DNA from: Thermoleophilia bacterium
GTDB taxonomy: Bacteria > Actinomycetota > Thermoleophilia > BMS3ABIN01
NCBI GenBank assembly: GCA_014874175.1
Contig: JACWAD010000048.1
Location: forward strand, 61,222-125,221
Direction: 5' to 3'
DNA: 64,000 nt
A program made the translations under genes and the position numbers. The notes beneath the pieces are model-generated. The model worked only from the letters and a program-made list of their open reading frames with translations. It made no database searches and was not told the origin of the DNA. Below are positions 20,799 to 59,174 of this stretch, in pieces (within the stretch, counting starts at the first letter, position 1; every line of letters starts with the position of its first letter).

Positions 20799-20835
20799 TC
20801 AGTTCCAGGTTCAAAGTTTTAAGTTCCAAGCTGCG
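20799..20835. repeat. Copy of intergenic repeat family AAGTTCCARGTTCAAAGTT (direct repeats AGTTCCA x2) immediately upstream of mtnA
   Basis: 15-mer AGTTCCAGGTTCAAA identical to 57996-58010; see findings. Confidence 0.5.
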
Positions 20836-20876
20836 GGAGCTTTTCACTCCAAACCCGGTGTTGGTTTTGGGTTAAT

Positions 20877-20904
20877 CCAGCATCCAGCATCCAGAATCCG
20901 GCAT
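20877..20904. repeat. Degenerate heptamer tandem repeat CCAGCAT CCAGCAT CCAGAAT CCGGCAT just downstream of ahcY
   Basis: Four tandem 7-mers read directly; preceded by hairpin CCAAACCCGG/TTGGTTTTGG. Confidence 0.5.
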
Positions 20905-20912
20905 CTGTTTTA

Positions 20913-22178
20913 CTACGTTCCCTCCTGCCAAGACGCCAGGTACTTCTCCTGTTCCGCCGTCAGCTTGTCGATCACGATGCCCATTGTTTCCAGCTTCAGG
21001 GCGGCGATTTTCTCATCAATGTCGAGCGGCACCGGATATACCCTGTGTTCGAGCGAGCCTGAGTTTTCCACGATAAATTCGGCGGCCAGCGCCTGGTTGG
21101 CGAAGCTCATGTCCATTACCTGGCCGGGGTGACCTTCCGCCGCCGAGAGGTTCACCAGTCGGCCTTCGGCCAGCAGGTAGATGATGCGTCCATCCTTGGT
21201 GGTGTACTCCTCCATGAAATCGCGAACGGTTCGATGGCCAGTTGACATGGCCTCAAGCGCCGGGATGTCTATTTCCACGTTAAAATGACCGGTGTTGCAG
21301 ATAATGGCGCCGTCTTTCATGGCCTCCATGTGCTCGGCGCGGATAACGTGTTTGTCTCCGGTTGCCGTCACAAACAGATCGCCGAACGCGGCCGCCCGGG
21401 CTACAGGCATGACCTCATAGCCGTCCATGACGGCCTCCAGGGCGCGCAGCGGGTCGACCTCCACAACAGTGACGCGGGCGCCCATTCCCTTGGCGCGCAT
21501 GGCGACGCCGCGGCCGCACCAGCCGTAGCCGCAGACGACTACCTGCGAGCCGGCCAGGAGGAAATTGGTGGCTCTCAGGATGCCGTCGATCGTTGACTGG
21601 CCGGTGCCGTAGCGGTTGTCAAAAAGATGCTTTGTGTTAGCTTCATTCACGGCGACGACAGGGAATTTAAGAGCGCCGTCAGCCTCCATCGCCCGCAGGC
21701 GGATGACGCCGGTGGTGGTCTCCTCGGTGCCGCCCAGGATTTCCACTGCCTGGTCGGGATGCTCGGCATGGACGACACTGATCACGTCGGCGCCGTCGTC
21801 CATGGTCACATGGGGGTGATGCGCAACCGCTGCCTTGATGTGTTGATAATATGTATCGTTGTCTTCACCCTTGATGGCGTAGACGCTGATGCCGTACTCG
21901 GCCACAAGCGCCGCCGCTGTATCATCCTGCGTGCTTAAGGGGTTGGAGGCGCACAGCACCACGTCGGCGCCGCCCGCCTTCAGGCATCGGACAAGATTGG
22001 CTGTCTCGGTTGTGACGTGGAGGCAAGCGGAAAGGCGCTTGCCTTCAAGGGGCTTGTCTCTCTCGAATCGCTCGCGGATCGAAGCCACCACCGGCATTCT
22101 TTTTTCAATCAGCTCAATTTTGAGCCTGCCTCTGGCAGCAAGGCCAAGGTCTCTTACGTCATGATCAATTTCGGGCAC
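20913..22178 (-). CDS. ahcY: Adenosylhomocysteinase (S-adenosyl-L-homocysteine hydrolase), short type
   Basis: 421 aa; NAD-binding [20 protein letters not shown], catalytic HFNVEID; GTG start. Confidence 0.93.
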
Positions 22179-30339: not shown

Positions 30340-30660
30340 TTAACGGTTCAGTGACAGGATGGAACGGTTCCCCGCCAGGGCAAGAAAAACTTCCTGAGTT
30401 AGCGGGGCCAGGATCAACCCGTGACTGCCCGTCTCGAGTGAAAGAATCCGGGGCGGGCCGCCAAGCTCTGCAGCCAGGGCCCCCGTGGCGGCCAGGGCCG
30501 AGGCGGAGTGAGCGGCCAGGGCTTCCATGTCGATGCCGCTGCCTGCTGAAACCACCAGCAGGCCGTCCCACGATACCAGTGCCGCCGCAGTGACAGATTC
30601 AATGTCGAGGTAGGGAGTAATAATTTCCGCCAATGAACGTTGTTTTTCCATGCCTGCCAT
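30340..30660 (-). CDS. Roadblock/LC7 (MglB-like) domain protein, translationally coupled to parB
   Basis: 106 aa; VTAAALVSWDGLLVVSAG ... ILSLETGSHGLILAPL pattern of Roadblock/LC7 fold; ATG overlaps parB TAA (TAATG). Confidence 0.7.
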   Translation of the reverse strand: MAGMEKQRSLAEIITPYLDIESVTAAALVSWDGLLVVSAGSGIDMEALAAHSASALAATGALAAELGGPPRILSLETGSHGLILAPLTQEVFLALAGNRSILSLNR

Positions 30661-31552
30661 TAACGGTTGTCTTCAAGAGAATCGATTATGCGGCGCAGTT
30701 CTTCATTGTTTCTGAACTCCATCTCAATGCGGCCCCCTCTGGCGCTCCAGCGGACTTTGACTGGCAGGCGAAAAGCTGAATAGAGAGCATCGGTTGCCTC
30801 ATCCATCAGTTCCTGGCCGGCAGGTATCGGGCTCGCCTCCCTGGCAGACTTGCGCTGCGGGGCCTCGCGTTTTACCCGTGCTTCCAGCTGCCGCACGGAC
30901 ATGTTGGCGGCAGCGGCTTTCGCAGCCAGGCGGCGCTGCCGGAGGCGATCCGGCACTGAAAGGAGGGCGCGCCCGTGACCTTCAGACAATCTGCCATGCT
31001 CGATAAGGGTTTGCACATCGTCCGGGAGGTCAAGCAACCGCAGGGTATTGGCTACTGCTGAGCGGCTGCGGCCCAGCTTGGCGGCCAGCTCTTCCTGCGT
31101 GATGCCGAAATCTTCCTGCAGGTTTGCGTAAGCCCGCGCCGCATCAATCGGATTTAAATCTTCCCGGCTCAGGTTTTCAATCAGGGCCAATTCCACGGAT
31201 TCGGCGTCGCCTGCGTCCCTGATCACGGCCGGGACTGTTTTCAGGCCGGCCATGCGCGCGGCGCGCCAGCGCCTCTCGCCGGCGATAATCTCAAAACTGC
31301 CGCCGGCGCGGCGCACGACTACCGGCTGCACAATGCCTACAGCCTTGATTGACGCCGCTAGTTCGGCGAGAGCCTCATCGCCGAAAGTCCGGCGCGGCTG
31401 CCCCGGATTTGAAACTATTTTATCGACAGCGATTTCCTGATATTGACCTGCAAGTTGCAAGTTGCCATTGTGGTTATTCACTTGTTGATTTTTATTCTGA
31501 TTTGTGCCAATCAAGGCCTCAAGTCCCCGGCCCAATCCCTTGCTGCTATTCA
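30660..31552 (-). CDS. parB: Chromosome partitioning protein ParB (Spo0J)
   Basis: GLGRGLEALI, ParB box IIAGERRWRAA, HTH ITQEELAAKLGRSRSAVANTLRLL; GTG start at 31552 after GGAGGTG, overlapping parA stop. Confidence 0.9.
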
Positions 31553-32337
31553 CGCTCGACCACCTCCGTGGCGAGATCGAAGTAAGCATCCGAACCGGCA
31601 CAGGTGGGATCATACCGCGATATCGGCTTGCCGTGGCTCGGAGCTTCGCTTAACCTGACATTGCGGGGAATGACTGTCTTGTAAATTAACTGCGGAAAAT
31701 GGGAACGGACCTGACTTACCACCTGGCTGGACAGATTGGTGCGGGCATCAAACATGGTCATCAGCAGGCCGGCGATCCTGAGGTTCGGGTTAAAGTTGCT
31801 CTGAACTGCAGATACAGTGGAAAGCAACTGTCCCAGTCCTTCCAAGGCGTAATATTCGCATTGGACCGGGATAATGATTTTGTCGGCTGCCACAAGGCCA
31901 TTCAGCGTGAGCAGGCTGAGAGAAGGCGGACAATCGATAAAGAGGTAATCAAAATCAGAAGAAATGCCCATGAGCGCCTTTGCTACGACAAATTCACGGT
32001 CTTCGCGGAGGGGAAGCTCAACCTCGGCGCCGGCGAGATGAGGCGTTGACGGGACCAGGAACAAGTGGGGCACTTGGGTGCCAATGATTGCTGATTCCAC
32101 GGGGGCGCCGACAGAGATGACATCATAGACAGTACGTGCGGTGCTTTCATGTATGCCTAGGCCGTGTGTTGCATTGCACTGAGCGTCGAGGTCGATGAGC
32201 AAAACGGTCGCACCTGCCTCGGCAAGACAAACGGCGGTGTTAATACAGGTTGTTGTCTTGCCTACGCCGCCTTTTTGGTTGGCAACTGCGTAGGTTTTAC
32301 CTAGACCCGCCCTCTCCCGAAATGAATTCGCCTGCAC
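31546..32337 (-). CDS. parA: Chromosome partitioning ATPase ParA (Soj)
   Basis: Deviant Walker A ANQKGGVGKTTT; 263 aa. Confidence 0.92.
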   Translation of the reverse strand: MQANSFRERAGLGKTYAVANQKGGVGKTTTCINTAVCLAEAGATVLLIDLDAQCNATHGLGIHESTARTVYDVISVGAPVESAIIGTQVPHLFLVPSTPHLAGAEVELPLREDREFVVAKALMGISSDFDYLFIDCPPSLSLLTLNGLVAADKIIIPVQCEYYALEGLGQLLSTVSAVQSNFNPNLRIAGLLMTMFDARTNLSSQVVSQVRSHFPQLIYKTVIPRNVRLSEAPSHGKPISRYDPTCAGSDAYFDLATEVVERE

Positions 32338-32391
32338 GAAGCAAATTTTATCAGATGAGCAGGATAGTGACCAGACAGAATTAACCAGGGA

Positions 32392-33084
32392 TTATGCGAG
32401 CGGCCTTTTTTTAGCCATGCCAGGCTTGCGTGGGAAGCGCGCCGGAGTCGGCCCTTCCTTTTTTATTAGCCAGACGTGCATGTTTCTGGCCTGATCGTAT
32501 GGATTTACAAGGGCAATGCGCTCGACGGACCCGTTCAGAGCCTGCGCCGCCAGCTGCGCCTTTTCCTCATCGCCCGGCTCTCTCTTGCCTCTCATCAGCA
32601 GGGCAAACCCCCCTGGGCGCGCCAGCGGTAGTGAATACTCGGTCGAAGCCGCAAGCTGCGCCACTGCCCTCGCCATTGAAAGGTCAAAAGAATCTCGCAT
32701 GTAAGAAGAGGCGGCATCTTCAGCGCGCATCCAAAGAACAGTGGCATTCTTAAGACCGAGTTCCCGGATGGCCCTTAACATAAAACCGCATTTCTTCCTG
32801 CTGGAGTCGATTAAGGTAAGATCAAGGCTGGGCCTGGCAATGGCAAGAGGAATTCCGGGAATCCCGGCGCCGCTGCCGATATCAACGGCATTGCCTGCAT
32901 TCACGACTTCAGGAAGGTCGAGAAGGACAAGACTGCTGCAAAGGAGAACATCCACGATTTCTGATTTGTCTTTGATAGAAGTGACGTTGGCATCACCCGC
33001 CGAATGCAGAAGGGACAAATATCTTTCCAGAAGCAGAAGCTTTTCGTCATTGAGGCCAAACCTAAGGAAGAGACGCCGCCACAT
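32392..33084 (-). CDS. rsmG: 16S rRNA (guanine527-N7)-methyltransferase RsmG (GidB)
   Basis: SAM motif DIGSGAGIPGIPLAIARP; position between mnmG and parA. Confidence 0.9.
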   Translation of the reverse strand: MWRRLFLRFGLNDEKLLLLERYLSLLHSAGDANVTSIKDKSEIVDVLLCSSLVLLDLPEVVNAGNAVDIGSGAGIPGIPLAIARPSLDLTLIDSSRKKCGFMLRAIRELGLKNATVLWMRAEDAASSYMRDSFDLSMARAVAQLAASTEYSLPLARPGGFALLMRGKREPGDEEKAQLAAQALNGSVERIALVNPYDQARNMHVWLIKKEGPTPARFPRKPGMAKKRPLA

Positions 33085-35333: not shown

Positions 35334-36398
35334 TTAAAATTTGGTTGTACAGGCAATGGTCACCGGCCTTGTTTTTCCGCAGGCAACGGCACGGCACAGC
35401 CTGGCGGCAATACTGTCAGGCTCAACCCTTGTGGCCGTCCTTGACTTGCCGGCCCGTAGTGAGGCATTCTTCCCTGCTATGGCTCCCAGGACGGCTGCTT
35501 CCGCAAAATAGCTGCAGCCGGCAGCCCTGCCGGCAAAAAAGAGCCCCGGGAGGCGCCCGGCTTCAAGGCTGGCGCCGACCTGCTTGACGGACAGGATCTG
35601 ATGATGGACGGCGTAGCCAGGCCGCGTCAACCATGGCTGCGGAAATTCGGAGCTGAGATTGCTCAGGGCAGACGCCCGGTTTCCGGCGAGCCTCGTACTT
35701 GTACCGTAAAGCTCACCCGGCACGACTTCAGGCAGCCATCGATCAGCGCCGGGGCCGCTTTTTGCTAAGCTTCTGGAGTCGAGATGAGGAGAGGAAACCG
35801 CCCGTACCCTCTCGGTGTTCACGCCAAGACCATCCAGGCAGCGGGCCAGGGCCTTGGCGGGAATCTCACTCCGGCGCCCGCCTGGGGAAAAAGAACCGCC
35901 TTCTTCTACGATCCCGCGCAAGAAGGTGCCAGCGGCTAGAACGATAGATGTTGCCATGAAGCTTTCGCCAAGGTTGGTGCCAGCAGTCCAGAATTTACCT
36001 GCCGGCTTGAGAGATGTGACAAGCGCCTGCCTGATTTCAACGTCTTCGGATTGCAGCGCCTCCTGATAGGCAAGACTGAGCTGGCGCCGGTCGGCTACCA
36101 GGGCCCCGGCGAAAGATCCGGGCGGGCATAATTCTTTTGTGCGAAGGATCCTGGGCAGCATGCCACCCATTTTGCCCAACTCTTCGATAAGCAGGTAACG
36201 AGGGTCGTCTTCACCCTCGGCCAGGACCGGGCTGCCCGGGTTAAGTCCGACGGTGTCGATGTTGATGCTTATACATAAGGATGAAGCGCCTGACCGCGCG
36301 GCTGCTGCCGACGCTTCACACCCCGCAGGTCCGCCACCGATGACCAGGACGTCGTAAACATTGTCACAATCGTTCTTATTTGCCAACACAGAATTCAC
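35334..36398 (-). CDS. Truncated MnmG/GidA-like FAD-binding protein (354 aa) lacking the insertion/catalytic-Cys region and C-terminal MnmE-binding domain
   Basis: YDVLVIGGGPAGCEASAAAARSG, AAGTFLRG, LTRPGYAVHHQ, LFFAGRAAGCSYFAEAAVLGAIAG align to MnmG motifs; CNPAIGG and RYCPS motifs absent; start overlaps mnmE stop. Confidence 0.7.
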   Translation of the reverse strand: MNSVLANKNDCDNVYDVLVIGGGPAGCEASAAAARSGASSLCISINIDTVGLNPGSPVLAEGEDDPRYLLIEELGKMGGMLPRILRTKELCPPGSFAGALVADRRQLSLAYQEALQSEDVEIRQALVTSLKPAGKFWTAGTNLGESFMATSIVLAAGTFLRGIVEEGGSFSPGGRRSEIPAKALARCLDGLGVNTERVRAVSSPHLDSRSLAKSGPGADRWLPEVVPGELYGTSTRLAGNRASALSNLSSEFPQPWLTRPGYAVHHQILSVKQVGASLEAGRLPGLFFAGRAAGCSYFAEAAVLGAIAGKNASLRAGKSRTATRVEPDSIAARLCRAVACGKTRPVTIACTTKF

Positions 36399-37752
36399 GG
36401 AAAATTTCGTCCAGCAGGTCTTCCATCATTTCCTCGCCCGTGATCTCACCCAGCGCCGTCAGCGCCGCGCGCAGCTCCTCTGAAATAATTTCTTCTCCCA
36501 GCCCCACCCGCAGGCCTTGCTGCGCCTTGAGGAGGCGCTCCGAAGCAGAGGCGAGCAGACGCTGATGGCGTTCCAGGGTTACCACGGGGCTTAAAGTGTG
36601 AGAGAAGGCTTCTCCTAAAACGAGGCGGGATATTTTTTCCTTCAGCTCGTTAAGTCCTTGACGCGTCAGGGCGGAAATTAGGACCGGCTGCGCCGGAAGC
36701 AGTCCCCGGTTAAATGATGGCGCGCGGCCGCGAAACAGGTCACATTTGTTAATTATGTAAATGGTCTTTTCCGGCAGGACCGAGGTAAGCAGGGCGCGGT
36801 CATGATCATCTTCCCGCCTGCTGCCGTCAAAAAGGCAGAGGATCAGATCTGCTTCCTTCAGCGCTTTGCGGCTGCGCTCAACGCCTATCTGTTCAACAAT
36901 GTCATCCGCAGGCGCCATGCCGGCTGTGTCAGTCAGTTGCAGGGGCACGCCGCCGACGTTGATGATCTCCTCAATGGTGTCGCGGGTAGTGCCAGGAATT
37001 TCCGTCACAATTGCCCTTTCACGCATCAGCATCGCATTGAGCAGGCTTGATTTGCCCACGTTCGGTTTGCCTACAATGGCGGTGCGGACACCCTGGCTCA
37101 GTATGCGGCCGGCAAAGGCAGACTCCGCCAGTTCCTCCAGGCACTTCTTGATCTGGGACAGGCGGGTTTCGGCTTCTTCCCGGTTGAGTTCTTCAATATC
37201 TTCATCGGAAAAATCCAGGCCAGCTTCCAGGGCGCCAAGCACAGACAGGACGCCGCGGCGAAGCGATTTTATCTCGGCAGAAAGAGACCCCTCCAGCTGT
37301 GACATTGCCAGCTTAAGCGCTGCCTCTGTCTTGGCGGATACAATCTGGGCGACGCTCTCGGCCTGGGCCAGGTCGATTCTGCCGTTTAAAAAAGCCCTGC
37401 GCGTGAATTCTCCCGGCGGCGCCAGTTCAGCGCCATGGTCCAAAAGCAGCGCCAGAATTTTTTTCTGGGCCACAGGTCCACCATGGCAGTTAACTTCCAC
37501 CATGTCTTCCCGCGTATATGTCCCGGGAGCCTTCATGACTGAAACCAGGACTTCGTCAATCACCTCCCCCGCCTCTGGGCTTACAATTCTGCCGTAGTGA
37601 AGGGTATGGGAGCCGGCTTGCTCAAGCCCGCACTTTCCCTGGAAAACGCCGCCACAAATAGTAATCGCCTCCTGGCCGGTCATGCGAACGATGCCAATGG
37701 CGCCGGCTCCCAGAGGTGTGGAGATTGCCGCTATTGTCGGGTAGTTCCGCAT
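36376..37752 (-). CDS. mnmE: tRNA modification GTPase MnmE (TrmE)
   Basis: MRNYPTIAAISTPLGAGAIGIVRMTG, G1 GKPNVGKSSLLN, G2 TTRD, C-terminal CVGK; supplied 741-aa ORF has spurious 283-aa N-terminal extension. Confidence 0.93.
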   Translation of the reverse strand: MRNYPTIAAISTPLGAGAIGIVRMTGQEAITICGGVFQGKCGLEQAGSHTLHYGRIVSPEAGEVIDEVLVSVMKAPGTYTREDMVEVNCHGGPVAQKKILALLLDHGAELAPPGEFTRRAFLNGRIDLAQAESVAQIVSAKTEAALKLAMSQLEGSLSAEIKSLRRGVLSVLGALEAGLDFSDEDIEELNREEAETRLSQIKKCLEELAESAFAGRILSQGVRTAIVGKPNVGKSSLLNAMLMRERAIVTEIPGTTRDTIEEIINVGGVPLQLTDTAGMAPADDIVEQIGVERSRKALKEADLILCLFDGSRREDDHDRALLTSVLPEKTIYIINKCDLFRGRAPSFNRGLLPAQPVLISALTRQGLNELKEKISRLVLGEAFSHTLSPVVTLERHQRLLASASERLLKAQQGLRVGLGEEIISEELRAALTALGEITGEEMMEDLLDEIFREFCVGK

Positions 37753-37774
37753 GGTGTGTATTATAACAACGGAT

Positions 37775-37802
37775 TTTGGACATTGGGCTTTGGATATTGG
37801 GC
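37775..37802. repeat. Tandem 14-nt direct repeat TTTGGAYATTGGGC x2 in mnmE/yyaL divergent promoter region
   Basis: Read directly: TTTGGACATTGGGC TTTGGATATTGGGC. Confidence 0.4.
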
Positions 37803-38061
37803 AAAAACCAAACCCATTTTTACTGAACATATAGTTATTCGGGAGAGGCTTGCCCTGAGTTTGCCTGTTTCCCCTTTCAAACAGGATGGTCAGCCTGGAT
37901 GTCGTTTGGCGCCTGGATTGTTTAAAATGTCCGGGTTGCGGCAAGCGAATGCTGGAGATCCGGCGATTATGAAAAAAGCGATGCTCTGCTTCAGCCTCCG
38001 GCGGCCGGATCTCGACAGCCCTTCGAGTTACTATATTTCTCAGGCTTCCCGGGAGAGTTGG

Positions 38062-39909
38062 ATGACTGGTAAAGGAAAGGAAAAGTTTATTTTCTCGCCC
38101 CGCCCAAACCAGGCGGCGCAAATCAGGTGGCGAGGGTGGAGCAGCCAGGCGCTGCGGCTGTCTCGCGAGCAGGGAAAACCAATCTTGCTGGTGATATCGG
38201 CCTCGTGGTGCCACTGGTGCCATGTTATGGACGAAACCTGTTTTTCTGACCCGGAGGTGATACAGTTGATCAACAGCAGATTCATACCCGTGCGTGTTGA
38301 CAGCGGTAGGAGGCCTGATATTAACAGCCGCTACAATCAGAGCGGCTGGCCAACGCTGGCATTTCTTACCCATGAAGGCGAGGTAGTTGCGAGCACCACG
38401 TATATTCCAACTGAGCAATTGAAGCGGCTGTTGACTGATATTGCCGATCTTTGCGGATCCAGCGCCAACAAGGTTAAGGAGGCCGTCCGGGAGATCCAGC
38501 GCCTGCGCCAGGAGCGCCCGCAGGCGCGGCCGGAGGAGCCGGGCCCGCAAGTCATATCCGACGTGCTCGAGGTTATGCGGCCGGAGGAGCCGGGCCCGCA
38601 AGTCATATCCGACGTGCTCGAGGTTATCGGGGAAAGTTATGACCGGGAATATGGCGGATTTGGCTGGGAGTCAAAATTCCCGTACGCCGACGCACTTGCC
38701 TTCCTGCTGACGACGCTTGCGGACGGCTATTTAGAGGCTGTTGACAATATGTTAAGAACAACGCTTGACGCCATGTCTGCCGGCGGCATGTACGACCGCG
38801 TGGAAGGGGGCTTTTTCCGGTATTCAACTGCAAGGGACTGGTCAGTTCCTCATTATGAAAAAATGCTGGCAGACAACGCCGCCTTGATGGCTGTTTACGC
38901 TAACGCATTTCTTTTAACCGGTGAGGAGGGCTACAAAAGTGTGGCCAAGGACGTCTGCTCTTATTTGCGCGCGGTGCTGCTTGACCGGCAAACGGGCGCT
39001 TTTGCCGGCAGCCAGGATGCGGATGAGCATGAGCATTATTATTCACTTGGCGCCGCAAAGCGGGCGAATAACAAAGCGCCGCGGCTGGACCGCGCGGTTT
39101 ATACGGATCAGAATGCGGCGGCCGCTTCGGCCCTGCTTCGGATGTTCCAGATATTTGACGATCCGGAGTATCGCAGTATGGCCGCAGCAGCGCTTGATTT
39201 TGTCTGGTGGCGGCTCTGGGACAGCGAATCGGGACCAAGCCATTATTATGAAGACGCAAAACCACGCTTAAGCGGGCAACTGGCCGATGCTTCCTCCCTC
39301 CTGTCGGCCTGCATGGATTCTTTCTTATGAGAGCGGCGCCGGCGAACTCTGGCTGGACAGGGCCATCCAGGCCGCGAAATGGCTGCTGGCAAGCCTTGAG
39401 GACAAGGAGAGCGGCGGCTTTTTTGATTGCTATAAGCCATTGGGCAATACCGGACTTCTGTCCGAGCGGGACAAACCAATAACAGAAAACAGCAATGCGG
39501 CCTCTGCCCTTATCCGCCTGGCCCAGTCAACCAGCATGCCAGTTTTTGGCGAGGCAGCGCGCCGGGCGCTGGCTTTTTTTGGCTCTACTTACAAGGGAAA
39601 GGCATAATAGCCGCCGGATATGCGGCTGCTGTACAACGCCTTCTGGAGCCGCCAGTGCGGGTGACGATTGTTGGTCCGGAAAGTTCCAAATCAACCAGGA
39701 TGATGATCGGCGCGGCGCACCGGGCCCGCATCCCCTTCCGTTCAGTGGAAGTGCTTGATCCGCGAACGCATGCCGAGGACCTGGAAGCTTCAGGTTTCGG
39801 ATATGCCGGCGAACCGGTGGCTTACATCTGTATCGGAACAAGCTGCCAGGCACCGGTAACCGACCCTGTTGTTCTCCCGGAACGGCTGGAAGGGAGCCGG
39901 CACCGGTAG
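38062..39909 (+). pseudogene. yyaL: Thioredoxin-domain protein YyaL/DUF255 (SPATA20-like) interrupted by two frameshifts (near 39320 and 39595)
   Basis: Three consecutive ORFs in different frames (38062-39330, 39287-39607, 39655-39909) all matching one family: ASWCHWCHVMDETCF thioredoxin motif, GGFFD..., C-terminal ICIGTSCQAPVTDP. Confidence 0.65.
38527..38628 (+). repeat. Perfect in-frame 51-bp tandem duplication (RPEEPGPQVISDVLEVM/I x2) inside yyaL-like gene
   Basis: Two adjacent 51-nt copies differing at 1 nt. Confidence 0.85.
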
Positions 39910-40568: not shown

Positions 40569-40676
40569 CATAATCATGATTCCGTGGTGGGGACCCATGG
40601 AAGCAGCCGCGCCGCGCCTTCCGTCCGGCGGGCGGCATATAATATTTCACCGGCGGTAGCTGAAAGGGGAAGAAAA

Positions 40677-42962
40677 ATGTTAGTCAACCAGCGTCAAGGA
40701 GTTGCCGGCAAGGGTCCCCGCGTCTCTGCCCTGCCACTTCAGCCCCAGCTTTCTCCAAACGCGGTAAAAGTACTGGAAAAACGGTATTTGAAGAAGGATG
40801 AGGAAGGCAGGCCCATTGAGACTCCGGCGGAGATGTTCCGGCGCGTGGCGCGCACCATCGCCGGGGCCGATCTGCTTCACAATCCGGATGCTGACGTGGA
40901 GGCCGCCGAGGAGGAATTTTACCGCATGATGACCAGGCTGGAATTTCTTCCCAACTCGCCCACCCTGATGAACGCCGGCCGGGAGCTGGGCCAGCTGTCC
41001 GCCTGTTTTGTACTGCCTGTTGGCGATTCCATGGAAAGCATTTTCACTGCTATCAAGCATACCGCCCTGATTCACAAAAGCGGCGGCGGCACCGGCTTCT
41101 CGTTTTCCCGCATCCGGCCCAGCAAAGATGTGGTGCTGTCAACTAAAGGAGTCTCTAGCGGACCAATCTCTTTTATGACGGTCTTCGATGCCGCCACAGA
41201 GACCATCAAGCAGGGCGGCACCCGCCGCGGCGCCAACATGGGCATTCTGCGTGTGGATCATCCTGACATCCTCGGTTTCATCACGGCCAAGCAAAGCAAT
41301 GACCGTCTTAACAATTTCAATATCTCAGTGGCCCTGACCGAGAATTTTATGGAGGCGGTGGAGCTTGACAGCGAGTATGACCTCATCAACCCGCGCACAG
41401 GCGAGAAAGCAAATACGCTCAAGGCGCGGCGGGTCTTTGAAATGATCGTAAATATGGCCTGGAAAAATGGCGACCCGGGCATCATTTTCATTGACCGGGT
41501 AAACCGCGACAATCCTACACCCCACATAGGTGAGATTGAGAGCACCAATCCCTGCGGCGAGCAGCCTCTGCTGCCTTATGAATCTTGCAATCTGGGCTCG
41601 ATTAACCTCGCCCGGGTAGTTGATTCATCAGGTGAGGTTGACTACGGACATCTGGGCCGTCTCGTGGATAGCGCTGTGCATTTCCTGGACAATGTCATTG
41701 ATGTCAACAAATATCCGCTCGCTGAGATCGAGAAGATGACCAGGGGAAACCGCAAGATCGGCCTGGGACTAATGGGGTTTGCCGACATGCTCATTGAACT
41801 CGGCATTCCCTACAGCTCGGACCAGGCAGTGGAGGTGGCGGAGGAGGTCATGGCTTTTATCCAGGAGGAGGCGCGCAAGAGCTCGGAGCGCCTGGCGCGC
41901 GAACGGGGAGCTTTCCCTAACTTCAGCGGCAGCGTTTTTAGTTCCAATGGCAGGCCCGAAGTGCGCAACGCCACCACTACCACAATTGCTCCCACGGGCA
42001 CGCTCAGCATTATCGCGGGCTGCTCAAGCGGCATTGAGCCCCTGTTTGCCGTTTCCTATATCAGGAACGTGCTTGATAACACGGAAATGGTTGAGGTGCA
42101 TCGCGCTTTTGAACAGGCGGCAAAGGACGGCGGTTTTTACAATGAAGAATTAATGAAAGAGATCGCAAGGAAAGGCAGCATCCAGGATTTGCCTGAGGTT
42201 CCGGACGAAATCAAGTCATTATTTGTGACTGCTCATGACGTTACCCCCGAATGGCACGTTCGCATGCAGGCGGCTTTTCAGAAGTACACTGACAATGCTG
42301 TTTCAAAAACGGTGAATTTTGCCCACGGCGCCACAACTGCAGACGTTGAACAGGTTTACAAACTTGCCTACAGGACCGGTTGCAAGGGGGTCACCATCTA
42401 CAGGGACGGCAGCCGCGAGGTGCAGGTGCTAAATATCGGCGGAGTTAAGGGGAAAGAGGCGGTGGCTGTGCCAGGGCAGGTTAAGCCGCGGCCCCGCCCC
42501 GGTTTTATAACGGGCGGTACCCATAAACTCGCTTCCGGTTGTGGCAACATCTACGTAACCATCAACCAAGATGAGCACGGCTTGTTTGAGGTCTTCTCTT
42601 CCATGGGGCTGGCCGGCGGCTGCAAGGGGGCCCAGTCGGAGGCGATCGCCAGGCTGATATCTCTGGCTCTCAGATCAGGAGTTGCCGTTGATGCGGTGAT
42701 AAAGTCCGTCAAGGGAATTCGCTGTCCGACACCTGGGTTCGGCGAGGGGGTCAAGGTAAATTCTTGCCCGGACGCGATCGCGCAGGCCCTGCTGGCGCAT
42801 TTGAAAAAAATGCCGCATCTGGCAGACGGCGCAGTGGCGGGATTGCCATCATCAGCCGAGTTGGCCCACTGCCCTGAGTGCCCCGAATGCGGCAGCACAG
42901 GCCTCGAGTTTGGTGAAGGGTGTGTTTTTTGCCGTTCCTGTGGATTTTCACGCTGCGGCTAG
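40677..42962 (+). CDS. nrdJ: Adenosylcobalamin-dependent ribonucleoside-diphosphate reductase (class II, NrdJ) with C-terminal zinc ribbon
   Basis: [37 protein letters not shown] active-site region, C-terminal CPECPECGS...CVFCRSCG; ATG at 40677 after AAAGGGGA. Confidence 0.9.
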
Positions 42963-42973
42963 AACAAGCCCGG

Positions 42974-43016
42974 TTTAACCAGGAGTTTAACCAGGAGTTT
43001 AGCTATGATTATAGCT
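42974..43016. repeat. 12-nt tandem repeat TTTAACCAGGAG x2.3 followed by 16-bp palindrome AGCTATGATTATAGCT downstream of nrdJ
   Basis: Read directly from sequence. Confidence 0.5.
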
Positions 43017-43131
43017 GGGATTTAGCCGGGCTTTGGCTCTAAAATTGCAGACGGCCCTTACCGCTCTCGAAGGAAAAGGGTTCAGAAGAGAGTAATAAGA
43101 AGTTGTTTAGCTGAACAGGTTTTTTGCTCGA

Positions 43132-44139
43132 ATGGCCAGTGGGGACGAAATGCGCTCAACAGATCACCGGCGCCTGGCAGCAAAAGCTGCTGGTGCGGGT
43201 TGCCGGCGGCTAAACGCGAAAAGAAGCCGCTCCTCAAGAAACCCTTTCAAGAGACAGCCGGCCACAGGCAGGTTGAAATCCCTTGCCCACCACGCCGGGA
43301 TCGGCGGCAGTCCCAAAGTCCGCCGCATAAAGGTACTGCTCGTCATCAGCGCTGCATTTTTCTTTCTCTGGGTCGGGCTTAAGGCAATGGACCAGGCAGA
43401 CCTCTGGCCCCTTCTGGCTGCGCCGATTTTGTTGTCGGCCTGGTTTTTCTATGAGGCGGGCGTGCTGGTGGCGGTGGTTTTAGCCGCGCTCCTCCTCGTG
43501 CAGACGTCTTTTGAAAAAAGCCCCGCGCTGATCATCGCCCTGGCAACCTTTACCGCCACCGGCATAGGACTGGGATGGGGCCAGCGGCAGCAAAAGCTTG
43601 CGCACCGGCACACTCTTCGCTCATCAATAACAGATTCCCTTACCGGCCTTTACAATTACGGGCATTTTATGCAGTGCCTTGACCGCGAGATTCACCGGGC
43701 AGGAAGGTATGGCGGCGCTGTTACGCTTGTCATGTTTGATGTTGATCATTTCAAGCAGTTTAACGATCGTTTCGGACACCAGGCCGGCAATGATGCTTTA
43801 AGGGCCGTCGCCGACATTCTGAGGAGCGAGAAGCGGGAATCTGATATTGCCGCCCGGTTTGGCGGGGAAGAGTTCGTGCTGCTGATTCCGGGCGACGAGT
43901 CGGCGGGCATCGAGACAGCCGGGCGTCTGCGCCGGGCAATATCCCAGACAATAGTGCCTGTTGGCGGCGGGGCTTCCAGCGGGATTACCGTCAGCGCCGG
44001 CGTGGCCAGCTATCCCCTGGGAGCGTCATCCCGTGAAGAGCTGCTTGACAGGGTTGACCAGCTTCTCTACGTTTCAAAAAATGCCGGCCGCAACAGGGTA
44101 AGCATAGCCCATAACAGGCAGCGCCTTGCGGTTTCCTGA
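43132..44139 (+). CDS. Membrane-anchored GGDEF-domain diguanylate cyclase
   Basis: LTGLYNYGHF ... RFGGEEFVLL active site (GGEEF), N-terminal TM helices; start codon uncertain (43132/43150). Confidence 0.85.
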   Translation: MASGDEMRSTDHRRLAAKAAGAGCRRLNAKRSRSSRNPFKRQPATGRLKSLAHHAGIGGSPKVRRIKVLLVISAAFFFLWVGLKAMDQADLWPLLAAPILLSAWFFYEAGVLVAVVLAALLLVQTSFEKSPALIIALATFTATGIGLGWGQRQQKLAHRHTLRSSITDSLTGLYNYGHFMQCLDREIHRAGRYGGAVTLVMFDVDHFKQFNDRFGHQAGNDALRAVADILRSEKRESDIAARFGGEEFVLLIPGDESAGIETAGRLRRAISQTIVPVGGGASSGITVSAGVASYPLGASSREELLDRVDQLLYVSKNAGRNRVSIAHNRQRLAVS

Positions 44140-57342: not shown

Positions 57343-57969
57343 ATGTTTTTCATCACGTTTGAGGGAATCGACCAAAGCGGCAAATCCACCCAGCTCGATC
57401 TTCTTGCCCGCGCCCTTCAGTCGGCCGGGCTTTCTGTTTTAAGCGTGCGCGAACCGGGCGGCACAGCGCTGGGCGAGGCGATCAGAAAGCTTCTGCTGGG
57501 GCCGGAGCATGCCGGCATGGGCCCTTGGGCCGAGACTCTCCTTTACGCGGCGGCGCGGGCCCAACTGGTCAAGGAGGTAATCAGGCCGGCGCTGGCCGGT
57601 GGCAAGCTTGTACTGTCGGACCGTTACATTGATTCCTCGCTTGTTTATCAGGGGATAGCCCGGGAGCTGGGAGTTGAGCCGGTGCTGGACCTTAATATGG
57701 GGGCAACCGGCGGTTTGATGCCGGATCTTACCCTTGTTTTTCATCTTGATGTTTATTCGTCGCGGCGGCGGCTGGCCGGGCGCAGAGACGGGCGCGACCG
57801 TATCGAGGGCGAGCCGCTTGAGTTTCATCGCCGGGTTGAAGCCGGTTACAGGCAGCTGGAGGATTTGTATTCCGGGCGGGTAGTCGGCATTGACGCCAGC
57901 TTGGCGGTTAGCGAGGTGCATGCGCGCGTGCTGGCCGAGTGCCGCCAGCGGCTCGGCCTTAAAGTTTAG
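57343..57969 (+). CDS. tmk: Thymidylate kinase
   Basis: MFFITFEGIDQSGKSTQ P-loop, DRY motif region SDRYIDSSLVYQG. Confidence 0.92.
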   Translation: MFFITFEGIDQSGKSTQLDLLARALQSAGLSVLSVREPGGTALGEAIRKLLLGPEHAGMGPWAETLLYAAARAQLVKEVIRPALAGGKLVLSDRYIDSSLVYQGIARELGVEPVLDLNMGATGGLMPDLTLVFHLDVYSSRRRLAGRRDGRDRIEGEPLEFHRRVEAGYRQLEDLYSGRVVGIDASLAVSEVHARVLAECRQRLGLKV

Positions 57970-57990
57970 TTCGGAGTTTAAAGCGCTAGG

Positions 57991-58086
57991 CTCAAAGTTC
58001 CAGGTTCAAACTGGTTAGAAAGCTTGGCTTTCTGGTGCTAAAGTTAGGCAGTTGTTTTTCAACTTTGAACTTGGAACTTGGAACTT
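57991..58086. repeat. Imperfect inverted repeat built from AAGTTCCARGTTCAAAGTT family units (forward 57993-58010, reverse 58060-58085) flanking a central palindrome AGAAAGCTTGGCTTTCT
   Basis: Arms CAAAGTTCCAGGTTCAAA vs TTTGAACTTGGAACTTGGAACTTTG; between tmk and holB. Confidence 0.5.
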
Positions 58087-59174
58087 TGTTTGATGATTTA
58101 ATCGGCCAGCCCCATGCCGCCCGTCTGCTGACGGCAGCCATCCATAACAAGCAGCCCAGCCACGCCTATTTATTCGCCGGGCCGCAGGGCAGCGGCAAGA
58201 GAATGGCGGCGCTCAAGTTTGCCGCTGCCATCTGCTGTGGGCAGGGTGGTTGCGGCTCATGCTCCACCTGTCAGAAGGCGGCCAAGGAAATCCATCCCGA
58301 CGTCATTACGATCAAACCGGACGGCTCAATAATCAAAGTTGAGCAGATTCGCGAGGTGAACCGCTCGCTCAGGCTGAGTCCGCATGAATCGCAGGCGCGG
58401 GTGTTCATCATCGGTGACGCAGCGGCGTTTAATGATGAGAGCGCCAACGCTTTCCTCAAGTCTCTCGAGGAGCCGCCTGCCTTTGTTTTTTTTCTGCTGC
58501 TGGCGTCAAGGCTGCAGGCGGTTCTGCCTACAATTGCCTCCCGCTGCCAGATCGTCCGCTTCAGCCAGGTGCCTGCAGCCGATATTGAGTCTTATCTTTC
58601 TGCCAGGTTCCAGATCACTGCTTTAAAAAGGGAGGCATTTGCCAGGGTTTGCGGCGGCAACCTCAGGCTGGCGGAGGCTTTGTGCGTTGACGCCGGACTT
58701 GCCGGACGGCGGGAATTGTATCTTGACGTCGCGGCCAGGCTGGCTCAGGACGGGAACGAAAATGCCGCCGGCATGGCGGCCGAAATTGAGACAGCCATTC
58801 TTGATGTGCCTGCGCCGGCAGGCGGCGACGAAGAACTGCCGGAAGGGTTTAAGGCCAGCCAGAAACAGAGGCAGCAGGACGCCCGCCGCCGCGAAAGAGC
58901 GGCCCGGAAACGGGAGCTGTCCCTGGCGCTGGATTTGCTTGCATCCTGGTACCGTGATATGACGGCAGTCGCGGCCGGGGCCAGGGACGTAATCGTAAAC
59001 AGGGACTATGAGCTGGAGCTGGAGGACCAGGCGCTGCCCTCCCGGCTTGATAATTATCTGAGGGCTGTTGGCGTCATCGAGAATACGCGCAAAAAACTAG
59101 GCTATAATATTGACTTGGGACTTGCTCTTACGGCCATGTTTTACGAACTTACGGAGGTTTTGCAGGTTGCCTGA
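58086..59174 (+). CDS. holB: DNA polymerase III delta-prime subunit (HolB)
   Basis: FDDLIGQPHAARLL, GPQGSGKRMAALKFAAAICC, zinc-module CGSCSTCQ, SRC motif; TTG at 58086 preferred over upstream GTG 58035 that would translate the repeat element. Confidence 0.8.
   Translation: MFDDLIGQPHAARLLTAAIHNKQPSHAYLFAGPQGSGKRMAALKFAAAICCGQGGCGSCSTCQKAAKEIHPDVITIKPDGSIIKVEQIREVNRSLRLSPHESQARVFIIGDAAAFNDESANAFLKSLEEPPAFVFFLLLASRLQAVLPTIASRCQIVRFSQVPAADIESYLSARFQITALKREAFARVCGGNLRLAEALCVDAGLAGRRELYLDVAARLAQDGNENAAGMAAEIETAILDVPAPAGGDEELPEGFKASQKQRQQDARRRERAARKRELSLALDLLASWYRDMTAVAAGARDVIVNRDYELELEDQALPSRLDNYLRAVGVIENTRKKLGYNIDLGLALTAMFYELTEVLQVA

What the first reader, a model, noticed from the sequence alone, without database searches (positions are those of the whole stretch)
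20799..20904. Small intergenic repeat family AAGTTCCARGTTCAAAGTT present at two loci
The 15-mer AGTTCCAGGTTCAAA occurs identically at 20802-20816 (mtnA leader) and 57996-58010 (tmk-holB spacer). A third, inverted and expanded copy (AAGTTCCAAGTTCCAAGTTCAAAGTT) lies at 58060-58085, so the tmk-holB spacer can fold into a long imperfect hairpin around a central palindrome AGAAAGCTTGGCTTTCT. The mtnA-proximal copy is accompanied by a heptamer tandem array (CCAGCAT)x4 and a short hairpin. This looks like a REP/MITE-like extragenic element family or a shared regulator-binding motif.
Basis: seen in the sequence. Interest (0 to 1): 0.5.

Follow-up and report, generated by a model that had tools for sequence, protein, structure and literature searches.

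The report
Tandem heptamer repeats flanking start codons
The shared motif is a short tandem 7-base repeat (unit RGTTCMA) lying directly in front of two unrelated genes; it belongs to an already described, poorly understood kind of bacterial intergenic heptamer repeat, not to a mobile element or a regulator's binding site.

Summary
AGTTCCAGGTTCAAA occurs at 20801-20815 and 57996-58010, and an inverted array lies at 58061-58086 (5 hits against 0.19 expected). The motif is a tandem heptanucleotide repeat, unit RGTTCMA (complement TKGAACY).

On both mRNAs the TKGAACY array ends 0-3 nt before the start codon (mtnA ATG; holB TTG 58086). In the tmk-holB spacer an opposite-sense array begins inside the tmk stop codon, so the whole 116-nt spacer folds stop-to-start.

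Relatives with 70% HolB identity keep a heptamer array as the holB leader, just after a sigma-70-like promoter. They do not keep the hairpin. More distant relatives have neither.

The same unit forms arrays, often convergent inverted pairs, in many phyla and in phage contigs, with strict polarity (68:4). Other heptamer units follow the same rule (CAGTAGT 42:0).

This kind is already described (GGGAATC in Xanthomonas, TAACTGA in Beggiatoaceae), with unknown function. REP/MITE and regulator-site readings are not supported.

Verdict: a new member of a known kind. The RNA-level leader and hairpin role is inferred, not shown.

The parts
20801..20835 (-). Heptamer array in front of mtnA. On the mRNA strand it reads (GCAGCTT, degenerate) TGGAACT TAAAACT TTGAACC TGGAACT, then GAT, then the ATG at 20797-20795.
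   Evidence: Sequence. Motif hits. An orthologous array GGAACTT TGAACTT TAAGTTA sits before the GTG start in relative L133.
20846..20858 (-). 5' arm (CCGGGUUUGGAGU) that pairs with the mtnA-proximal array at 20805-20817. The stem has 13 bp, of which 4 are G-U pairs.
   Evidence: Fold, pairs listed. The fold is weak (z = -1.4) and is not conserved in relatives.
20875..20905 (-). Second heptamer family, (ATCCAGC)x4.4. On the mRNA strand it reads (GCTGGAT)n and begins 8 nt after the ahcY stop codon (stop ends at 20913; first array base on the mRNA strand is 20905).
   Evidence: TRF. GGATGGT-type arrays occupy the same position in L131 and L133. The same unit lies 12 nt upstream of topA in L129.
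57968..58009 (+). Six in-phase RGTTCMA-type units: AGTTCGG AGTTTAA AGCGCTA GGCTCAA AGTTCCA GGTTCAA. The first unit overlaps the tmk TAG stop codon (57967-57969).
   Evidence: Sequence. The geometry matches the class, in which the array starts -2 to +16 nt from the upstream stop codon in 25 of 32 cases.
57995..58010 (+). 5' arm of the main 16-bp stem. It pairs with 58064-58079. An outer 5-bp stem pairs 57968-57972 with 58081-58085.
58015..58050 (+). Central palindrome hairpin (58015-58035). It overlaps a terminator-like hairpin at 58022-58049 that is followed by AGTTGTTTTT.
58061..58085 (+). Inverted array AACTTTG AACTTGG AACTTGG AACT. It forms the 3' arm of the hairpin and ends on the base before the holB TTG start codon (58086).
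   Evidence: TRF. Gene call. Alignment with the relatives' leader arrays.
58086..59174 (+). holB (DNA polymerase III delta', PF13177), starting at TTG 58086 and not at GTG 58035.

Best explanation
The motif is a heptanucleotide simple-sequence repeat with unit RGTTCMA (complement TKGAACY). It is one member of the known kind of genome-wide intergenic heptamer repeat families.

Shown:
- The arrays are head-to-tail 7-mers.
- They lie in the untranslated spacers directly before the mtnA and holB start codons, with TKGAACY on the mRNA strand.
- In the tmk-holB spacer a convergent partner array starts inside the tmk stop codon, so the spacer closes into a stop-to-start hairpin.
- Close relatives keep an array at the same place, with different unit numbers and unit sequences.

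Inferred:
- The arrays arise and change size by replication slippage.
- They are transcribed. The conserved, working part is the pyrimidine-strand array, which acts as a weakly structured mRNA leader without a Shine-Dalgarno sequence, abutting the start codon.
- Where a convergent partner is co-transcribed, as in read-through from tmk, the hairpin masks that leader. This would insulate holB translation from, or couple it to, the upstream cistron.

My estimates: identity as a heptamer SSR family about 0.85; a role as a translation leader about 0.35; hairpin gating about 0.3.
For: - Period-7 arrays are found by TRF, and the motif is enriched over chance.
- The arrays end 3 nt (mtnA) and 0 nt (holB) before the start codons.
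- The hairpin pairs the first unit, at the stop codon, with the last unit, at the start codon.
- Relatives at 70% HolB identity carry (GGAACTC)x6.6 or GAAACCC-type heptamers between a sigma-70-like promoter and the holB start. The promoters are TTGACA-18-TAAATT and TTGATA-16-TATAAT, and the array begins 4-6 nt after the -10 box.
- mtnA in L133 keeps GGAACTT TGAACTT before its GTG start. Relatives without an array have GGAGGGAG or GAAGGAAAA there instead.
- Unit number varies among Segatella copri loci, 4 units against 5.
Nearly all hits have flanking heptamer arrays.
- Only 19 of 140 arrays are coding.
- In 32 co-directional gene contexts the pair starts -2 to +16 nt from the stop codon in 25 cases and ends near the next start codon.
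- The arms co-vary unit by unit.
- The arms are about 100% identical between two verrucomicrobial genera, while the loop is about 50% identical.
- Published analogues: TAACTGA repeats end about 1 nt before start codons that lack a Shine-Dalgarno sequence (PMC4679880). GGGAATC repeats have mostly 4 units, form convergent pairs, are intergenic, positionally conserved and transcribed (PMC4692102).
Against: - The hairpin is not conserved. The relatives' leaders fold no better than shuffles (z = 0 to +0.8).
- In 32 class hairpins, stem mismatches show no bias toward sense-strand wobble pairs (G-U 32 against A-C 28), so there is no signature of selection on one RNA strand.
- Solo arrays show no orientation preference relative to transcription (22 against 18).
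- Lack of a Shine-Dalgarno sequence is not unusual in this window: only about 14 of 41 crude gene starts show one.
- Relatives at 61% HolB identity have no arrays.
- No sigma-70-like promoter was found in the window's own spacer.
- No expression data exist.
Confidence: 0.55

Rival explanations
1. The arrays are neutral by-products of replication slippage, tolerated only where DNA is non-coding. They have no function, and the hairpin in this window is incidental.
For: - Arbitrary composition-matched control heptamers also form exact x3 arrays in viral contigs (15 and 7 stretches, against 43 for AGTTCAA).
- There is no wobble asymmetry in the stems.
- The hairpin is not conserved in relatives.
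- Arrays are lost at 61% HolB identity.
- Unit number is polymorphic.
Against: - Inverted pairs have a strict polarity: 68:4, 42:0 and 17:2.
- The stop-to-start geometry is tight.
- The arms are far better conserved than the loop between two genera.
- The array position is kept across 70%-identity relatives while the unit sequence changes.
Confidence: 0.3
2. The convergent array pairs are transcription terminators, pause sites or RNA-stabilising hairpins, like REP in function. They mark the 3' end of the upstream gene.
For: - The 5' arm starts at or just after the upstream stop codon.
- Pairs lean toward convergent over divergent gene contexts, 11:5 against a background of 119:111. Xanthomonas repeats show 16% against 7-8%.
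- The window spacer holds a terminator-like hairpin with a T-run at 58022-58049.
Against: - The context bias is not significant (p = 0.21).
- Most pairs have no U-tract after them.
- The 3' arm abuts the next start codon, so termination there would silence holB.
- Two thirds of pairs lie between co-directional genes.
Confidence: 0.15
3. The heptamers are direct-repeat binding sites on DNA for a transcription factor, or -35 elements (GGAACTT) for an ECF sigma factor, which would place mtnA and holB in one regulon.
For: - GGAACTT resembles the ECF-type -35 consensus (from my own knowledge, not tested against a model).
- The motif is shared by two leaders.
Against: - No -10 partner lies at 16-17 nt, and the arrays run into the start codon.
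- In relatives the array lies downstream of the -10 box.
- Contiguous 7-bp units fall on different faces of the helix (established knowledge).
- The same unit precedes or follows unrelated genes in many phyla and in phages.
Confidence: 0.07
4. The elements are REP- or MITE-like mobile elements spread by a transposase.
For: - They are intergenic, palindromic and multi-copy.
- Fixed polarity is what terminal inverted repeats would give.
Against: - There is no conserved internal sequence. Loops run from 3 to 185 nt and are unrelated.
- No target-site duplication is visible in the flanks.
- Arrays also occur singly.
- Length changes go by whole units.
- Dozens of different unit sequences behave the same way.
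Confidence: 0.05

Closest known systems
GGGAATC / GGGGAYT heptameric intergenic repeats of Xanthomonas and Nostoc (Rehm et al. 2015, PMC4692102)
   Same: - Tandem 7-mers, mostly about 4 units, intergenic and dispersed.
- Many occur as pairs in convergent orientation that can form stem-loops.
- They lie nearer the end of the upstream ORF.
- Positions are conserved between related species, with length differences.
- They are transcribed, and their function is unknown.
   Different: - The unit here is A/T-rich (RGTTCMA) and cannot form a G-quadruplex.
- It is found in many phyla rather than one genus.
- In this window the 3' arm abuts a start codon.
TAACTGA direct repeats of marine Beggiatoaceae, cyanobacteria and some Bacteroidetes (MacGregor 2015, PMC4679880)
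   Same: - Tandem heptamers of 2-6 units, in forward orientation, ending 0 to a few nt before start codons that lack a Shine-Dalgarno sequence.
- The downstream genes are unrelated.
- The ACT-containing strand is the mRNA strand, as with AACTTKG here.
   Different: - The unit sequence differs.
- TAACTGA is almost never inverted in that genome (169 direct sets, 1 inverted). In the loci fetched for RGTTCMA, roughly 40% of arrays had a convergent partner.
Long simple sequence repeats of prokaryotes and cyanobacterial STRR heptamers (Mrazek et al. 2007; Mazel et al. 1990; both as cited)
   Same: Heptanucleotide units are the commonest long SSR class. They are intergenic and lineage-sporadic, and are attributed to polymerase slippage.
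   Different: Those surveys, as far as I could read them second-hand, do not describe this unit or the stop-to-start hairpin. I could not read the primary papers.
REP/BIME elements of enterobacteria
   Same: Extragenic palindromes between co-transcribed genes. A similar role as an RNA hairpin is possible.
   Different: REPs have a conserved 20-40-nt sequence and a dedicated RAYT transposase. Here only a 7-nt unit is shared and the copy number of units varies.

Membership tests
Heptanucleotide simple-sequence-repeat families (LSSR kind; the TAACTGA and GGGAATC type) | Head-to-tail repeats of a 7-nt unit, at least 2-3 copies | tested here: met
   TRF finds period 7, 3.7 copies at 94% match, at 58061-58086. 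There are four in-phase units at 20801-20828.
Heptanucleotide simple-sequence-repeat families (LSSR kind; the TAACTGA and GGGAATC type) | The same unit at several dispersed, mostly intergenic loci of one genome | tested here: inconclusive
   There are two intergenic loci in 64 kb and two in 21 kb of relative L126. The rest of the source genome could not be reached, so no genome-wide count was possible. At class level, 121 of 140 arrays are non-coding.
Heptanucleotide simple-sequence-repeat families (LSSR kind; the TAACTGA and GGGAATC type) | Length changes by whole units between relatives (slippage) | tested here: met
   The holB leader has 3.7 units in the window and 6.6 in L126. Segatella copri loci have 4 and 5 units.
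Heptanucleotide simple-sequence-repeat families (LSSR kind; the TAACTGA and GGGAATC type) | Inverted pairs occur in convergent orientation (G-containing strand as the 5' arm) | tested here: met
   The window pair has the AGT strand 5' and the ACT strand 3'. For the class the count is 68:4. Other units give 42:0, 4:0 and 17:2. The literature on Xanthomonas repeats says the same.
TAACTGA repeat family proper | The unit is TAACTGA | tested here: not met
   The unit here is TKGAACY / AACTTKG. Only the AACT core and the position before start codons are shared.
REP / BIME | Conserved 20-40-nt imperfect palindrome sequence shared by all copies | tested here: not met
   The two loci share only 15-18 nt, made of heptamer units. 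Loops and flanks are unrelated.
REP / BIME | Associated RAYT (Y1 transposase) gene in the genome | not tested
   The window's ORFs were not scanned for PF01797, and the rest of the genome was not available.
MITE | Terminal inverted repeats around a conserved body, flanked by a target-site duplication | tested here: not met
   There is no conserved body. Loops run from 3 to 185 nt. No duplication is visible in 32 flanks. Arrays also occur singly.
Intrinsic (Rho-independent) terminator | G+C-rich stem followed directly by a U-tract | tested here: inconclusive
   The scan finds one weak site inside the loop, at 58022-58049 plus AGTTGTTTTT (2 sites found against 0.7 expected). The main heptamer stem is A/U-rich and is followed by the holB start codon. 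No site was found in the mtnA spacer.
Curated RNA families (Rfam 15) | Match to a covariance model at the gathering score | tested here: not met
   No hit in the window at the gathering threshold. Nothing relevant at E <= 1 in either spacer. No family covers the arrays in 15 class loci.
ECF-sigma promoter | -35 GGAAC followed at 16-17 nt by a -10 element, upstream of a transcribed leader | tested here: not met
   This was read directly from the sequence. No -10 partner is present, and the array runs into the start codon. In relatives the array lies after a sigma-70-like -10 box.

The most novel reading that the evidence does not exclude
Heptamer-array palindromes may be a pan-bacterial and phage class of element whose fixed polarity reflects a conserved machinery rather than slippage alone. 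The polarity is that the G/AGT-containing strand always runs 5'->3' toward the centre, across more than 25 unit sequences. Two candidate machineries:
- Phased binding of 7-nt-footprint OB-fold proteins (cold-shock-domain or S1-type) to the pyrimidine arm, which would open a stop-to-start hairpin and gate translation of the downstream gene. The CspB optimum GTCTTTG/T compares with AACTTTG here.
- Repeat addition to 3' ends at DNA breaks, giving head-to-head arrays.

The tmk-holB spacer would then be a working example of such a gate.
Probability: 0.12. Interest if true: 0.8.

Novelty: new member of a known kind. Interest (0 to 1): 0.4.

Why it matters
For this window, the result corrects the holB start codon. 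It also shows that the 'shared motif' does not link mtnA and holB in a regulon or mark a mobile element.

More broadly, heptamer repeat families are common in bacterial and phage intergenic DNA, and their function is still unknown. This case adds four things:
- a unit that recurs across many phyla;
- a stop-to-start hairpin geometry;
- a promoter-to-start-codon leader made only of heptamers in relatives;
- evidence that the convergent polarity reported for one Xanthomonas family holds for dozens of unrelated units.

That polarity is a concrete, testable constraint on any model of how these repeats arise or act.

Tried and rejected
- **Rfam.** At gathering and E-value thresholds, on the window and on 15 class loci, nothing covers the arrays.
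- **Selection on the sense RNA.** The four G-U pairs of the mtnA hairpin suggested it, but across 32 class hairpins G-U (32) and A-C (28) mismatches are equal. The signal is not general, and with n = 4 it may be chance.
- **Hairpin conservation.** The relatives' leaders are unstructured, so I moved the emphasis from the hairpin to the array.
- **Promoter in the window's tmk-holB spacer.** The scan finds none. I read a possible extended -10 (TGcTAAAGT, 58036-58044) by eye and do not rely on it.
- **Shine-Dalgarno depletion.** The crude baseline is only 14 of 41, so the absence of one at two genes is not informative.
- **Terminator reading.** The gene-context bias is not significant and there are no U-tracts.
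- **Is AGTTCAA uniquely common?** No. CAGTAGT (29), AATGATG (48) and TAACTGA (107) are comparable in viral contigs.
- **Genome-wide count in the source genome.** This was not possible.
- **Literature.** String searches for the unit found no bacterial paper. Mrazek et al. 2007 could not be read.

Full report
**Observation**

The 15-mer AGTTCCAGGTTCAAA is present at 20801-20815 and at 57996-58010. An inverted, expanded copy lies at 58061-58086.

With up to two mismatches the pattern hits five times in the window, against 0.19 expected. The central palindrome, the long hairpin (-45.3 kcal/mol, z = -2.6) and the neighbouring (ATCCAGC)x4.4 array are all there. Both spacers are identical in contigs assembled from separate sequencing runs.

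**Anatomy**

The motif is a tandem heptamer. On the + strand at 20801-20828 it reads AGTTCCA GGTTCAA AGTTTTA AGTTCCA. At 58061-58085 it reads AACTTTG AACTTGG AACTTGG AACT (TRF period 7).

Both downstream genes see the same strand. mtnA is on the minus strand, and its leader reads TGGAACT TAAAACT TTGAACC TGGAACT-GAT-ATG. The holB leader reads ...GAACTTGGAACTTGGAACT-TTG.

The holB start is TTG 58086. An independent gene call gives 362 aa from that codon, and the N-terminus MFDDLIGQ aligns with the start codons of relatives.

In the tmk-holB spacer, six in-phase units of the opposite sense run from 57968 to 58009. The first unit, AGTTCGG, overlaps the tmk TAG stop codon. The predicted fold pairs 57968-57972 with 58081-58085 and 57995-58010 with 58064-58079. 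The 116-nt spacer therefore closes from the stop codon to the start codon.

The mtnA array pairs with CCGGGUUUGGAGU (20858-20846) through four G-U pairs, but that fold is weak (z = -1.4).

**Source and relatives**

Named homologues of HolB and MtnA come from uncultured Thermoleophilia-like Actinobacteria.

Two lineages at 70% HolB identity keep a heptamer array directly before the holB start codon:
- L126 has (GGAACTC)x6.6.
- L129 has GAAACCC GTAACTC CAAACCC GAAACCG.

In both, a sigma-70-like promoter ends 4-6 nt before the array (TTGACA-18-TAAATT and TTGATA-16-TATAAT). The array is therefore essentially the whole 5' leader. These leaders have no complementary arm and fold no better than shuffles.

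Relatives at 61% identity have no arrays.

At mtnA the picture is similar:
- L133 keeps GGAACTT TGAACTT before a GTG start codon.
- L131 has lost the array and shows GAAGGAAAA there.
- L135 shows GGAGGGAG there.

The (GCTGGAT)n array after the ahcY stop codon is also kept in L131 and L133. The same unit precedes topA in L129.

So the array and its position are conserved. The hairpin is not.

**The wider class**

My own estimate of the chance expectation is about 35 for the whole collection.

Almost every hit sits in a longer array of AGTTCAA, AGTTCCA and GGTTCAA units. The hits come from Acidobacteriota, Bacteroidota, Verrucomicrobiota, Planctomycetota, Desulfobacterota, Chloroflexota and others. 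None of these loci is the source genome.

Features of the class:
- Period 7 dominates the tandem repeats of these loci, and more than half of the period-7 arrays have other units.
- Only 19 of 140 arrays lie in coding sequence.
- Adjacent inverted arrays are almost always arranged 5'-(RGTTCMA)n...(TKGAACY)n-3', 68 cases against 4. This arrangement reads the same on both strands, so the count is not an orientation artefact.
- Between co-directional genes, the pair starts -2 to +16 nt from the upstream stop codon in 25 of 32 cases and ends close to the next start codon. The window's tmk-holB spacer fits this exactly.
- The hairpins are 59-202 nt long, and the arms co-vary unit by unit.
- Between two verrucomicrobial genera the arms are essentially identical while the loop is about half identical.
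- Segatella copri loci differ by whole units.
- The same structures occur in viral contigs, 34 sites against 14. Most of the 14 are redundant hits or are not arrays.

**Tests that limit the claim**

- In the 32 hairpins between co-directional genes, stem mismatches are G-U in 32 cases and A-C in 28 on the sense strand. There is no sign of selection on one RNA strand.
- Solo arrays show no orientation preference relative to transcription, 22 against 18.
- The lean toward convergent over divergent gene contexts (11:5) is not significant.
- Exact three-unit arrays in viral contigs number 43 for AGTTCAA, 29 for CAGTAGT, 48 for AATGATG and 107 for TAACTGA. Two composition-matched controls give 15 and 7. 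AGTTCAA is therefore one of several common heptamer families, not a special sequence.
- No Rfam family covers the arrays.

**Polarity is general**

In the loci already held, inverted pairs of 25 other unit families have the G-richer strand as the 5' arm in 31 of 37 cases. AGT outnumbers ACT in the 5' arm in 24 cases against 1.

I then fetched loci chosen only for a direct (CAGTAGT)x3 or (AATGATG)x3 array. Inverted pairs there gave 42:0, 4:0 and, for other units, 17:2.

I have no explanation that I can test here. My ideas are in the notebook: hiding the C-rich arm from Rho, hybrid stability, a polar mechanism of origin, or a protein that binds the pyrimidine arm.

**What is known**

Rehm et al. 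2015 describe GGGAATC repeats in Xanthomonas (PMC4692102):
- mostly four units, and intergenic;
- 70-75 pairs per genome 'with convergent orientation';
- closer to the upstream ORF;
- twice as frequent between convergent as between divergent genes;
- 83% positionally conserved between species, with length differences;
- mostly transcribed.

MacGregor 2015 describes TAACTGA repeats that end about 1 nt before start codons lacking a Shine-Dalgarno sequence, and proposes S1, Csp or CsrA as binders (PMC4679880).

Heptanucleotides are reported as the commonest long SSR class in prokaryotes (Mrazek 2007, as cited). I could not read that paper.

String searches found no bacterial paper that mentions the RGTTCMA unit.

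**Verdict**

The finding is real. It is best filed as a new member (unit RGTTCMA) of the known kind 'intergenic heptanucleotide repeat families, often in convergent pairs'. It is not a REP, a MITE or a regulator's operator.

The most likely working picture has three steps:
- slippage generates the arrays;
- the arrays are transcribed as a leader without a Shine-Dalgarno sequence, abutting the start codon;
- in this lineage a convergent partner turns the tmk-holB spacer into a stop-to-start hairpin that could gate holB translation in read-through transcripts.

Only the anatomy and the conservation are shown. The function is inferred, and a neutral origin remains a serious rival.

Noticed in passing
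Loci L004-L548 (class level). Examples: L106 7219-7300, L084 4621-4693, L368 11294-11418.: Inverted pairs of tandem heptamer arrays of many unrelated units always have the G/AGT-containing strand as the 5' arm: 68:4 for RGTTCMA, 42:0 for CAGTAGT, 17:2 and 31:6 for other units. The literature states this only for GGGAATC in Xanthomonas. It is unexplained.
   Followed up: partly
window 38526-38627: A perfect 51-bp tandem duplication (2.0 copies, 100% match, TRF score 204). It spans the annotated TTG start (38601) of the long minus-strand ORF 36376-38601.
   Followed up: no
window 42973-43034: Two adjacent short tandem arrays, (GTTTAACCAGGA)x2.4 and (GATTTAGCCGG)x2.5, in the spacer between ORFs 40584-42962 and 43132-44139. 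They could be iteron-like or operator-like repeats.
   Followed up: no
window 31449-31465: (TGCAAGT)x2.4, that is AAGTTGC AAGTTGC, a variant of the same heptamer family. It lies inside the N-terminal linker of a ParB-like ORF (coding for ...NGNLQLAG...). It is probably coding chance or a short in-frame slip.
   Followed up: partly
window 30660-33084: A ParA-like ORF (KGGVGKTT motif), a ParB-like ORF and a methyltransferase-like ORF (probably rsmG/gidB) lie in a row on the minus strand. This is the usual origin-proximal cluster. I judged this from the translations only, not from a family search.
   Followed up: no
L126 1096-1125: An (AATGTCG)x3.6 array supplies the last codons and the stop codon of a glycosyltransferase ORF. 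A (GAACTCG)x2.7 array sits 45 nt further on, before the end of the convergent gene.
   Followed up: no
window 20836-20874; L131 2425-2445; L133 2383-2400; L129 3880-3907: A third heptamer-like series, RAAACCC / AAAACCA, recurs in the middle of the ahcY-mtnA spacer of the window and its relatives, and in the holB leader of L129. These spacers look like patchworks of several heptamer families.
   Followed up: no
L023, L037, L075, L117 (Segatella copri loci): Just upstream of the AAGTTCM array, the same spacer carries another heptamer array, (AGTTWAT)n. The AGTT core is shared by several families, including TAACTGA read on its other strand (AGTTATC).
   Followed up: no
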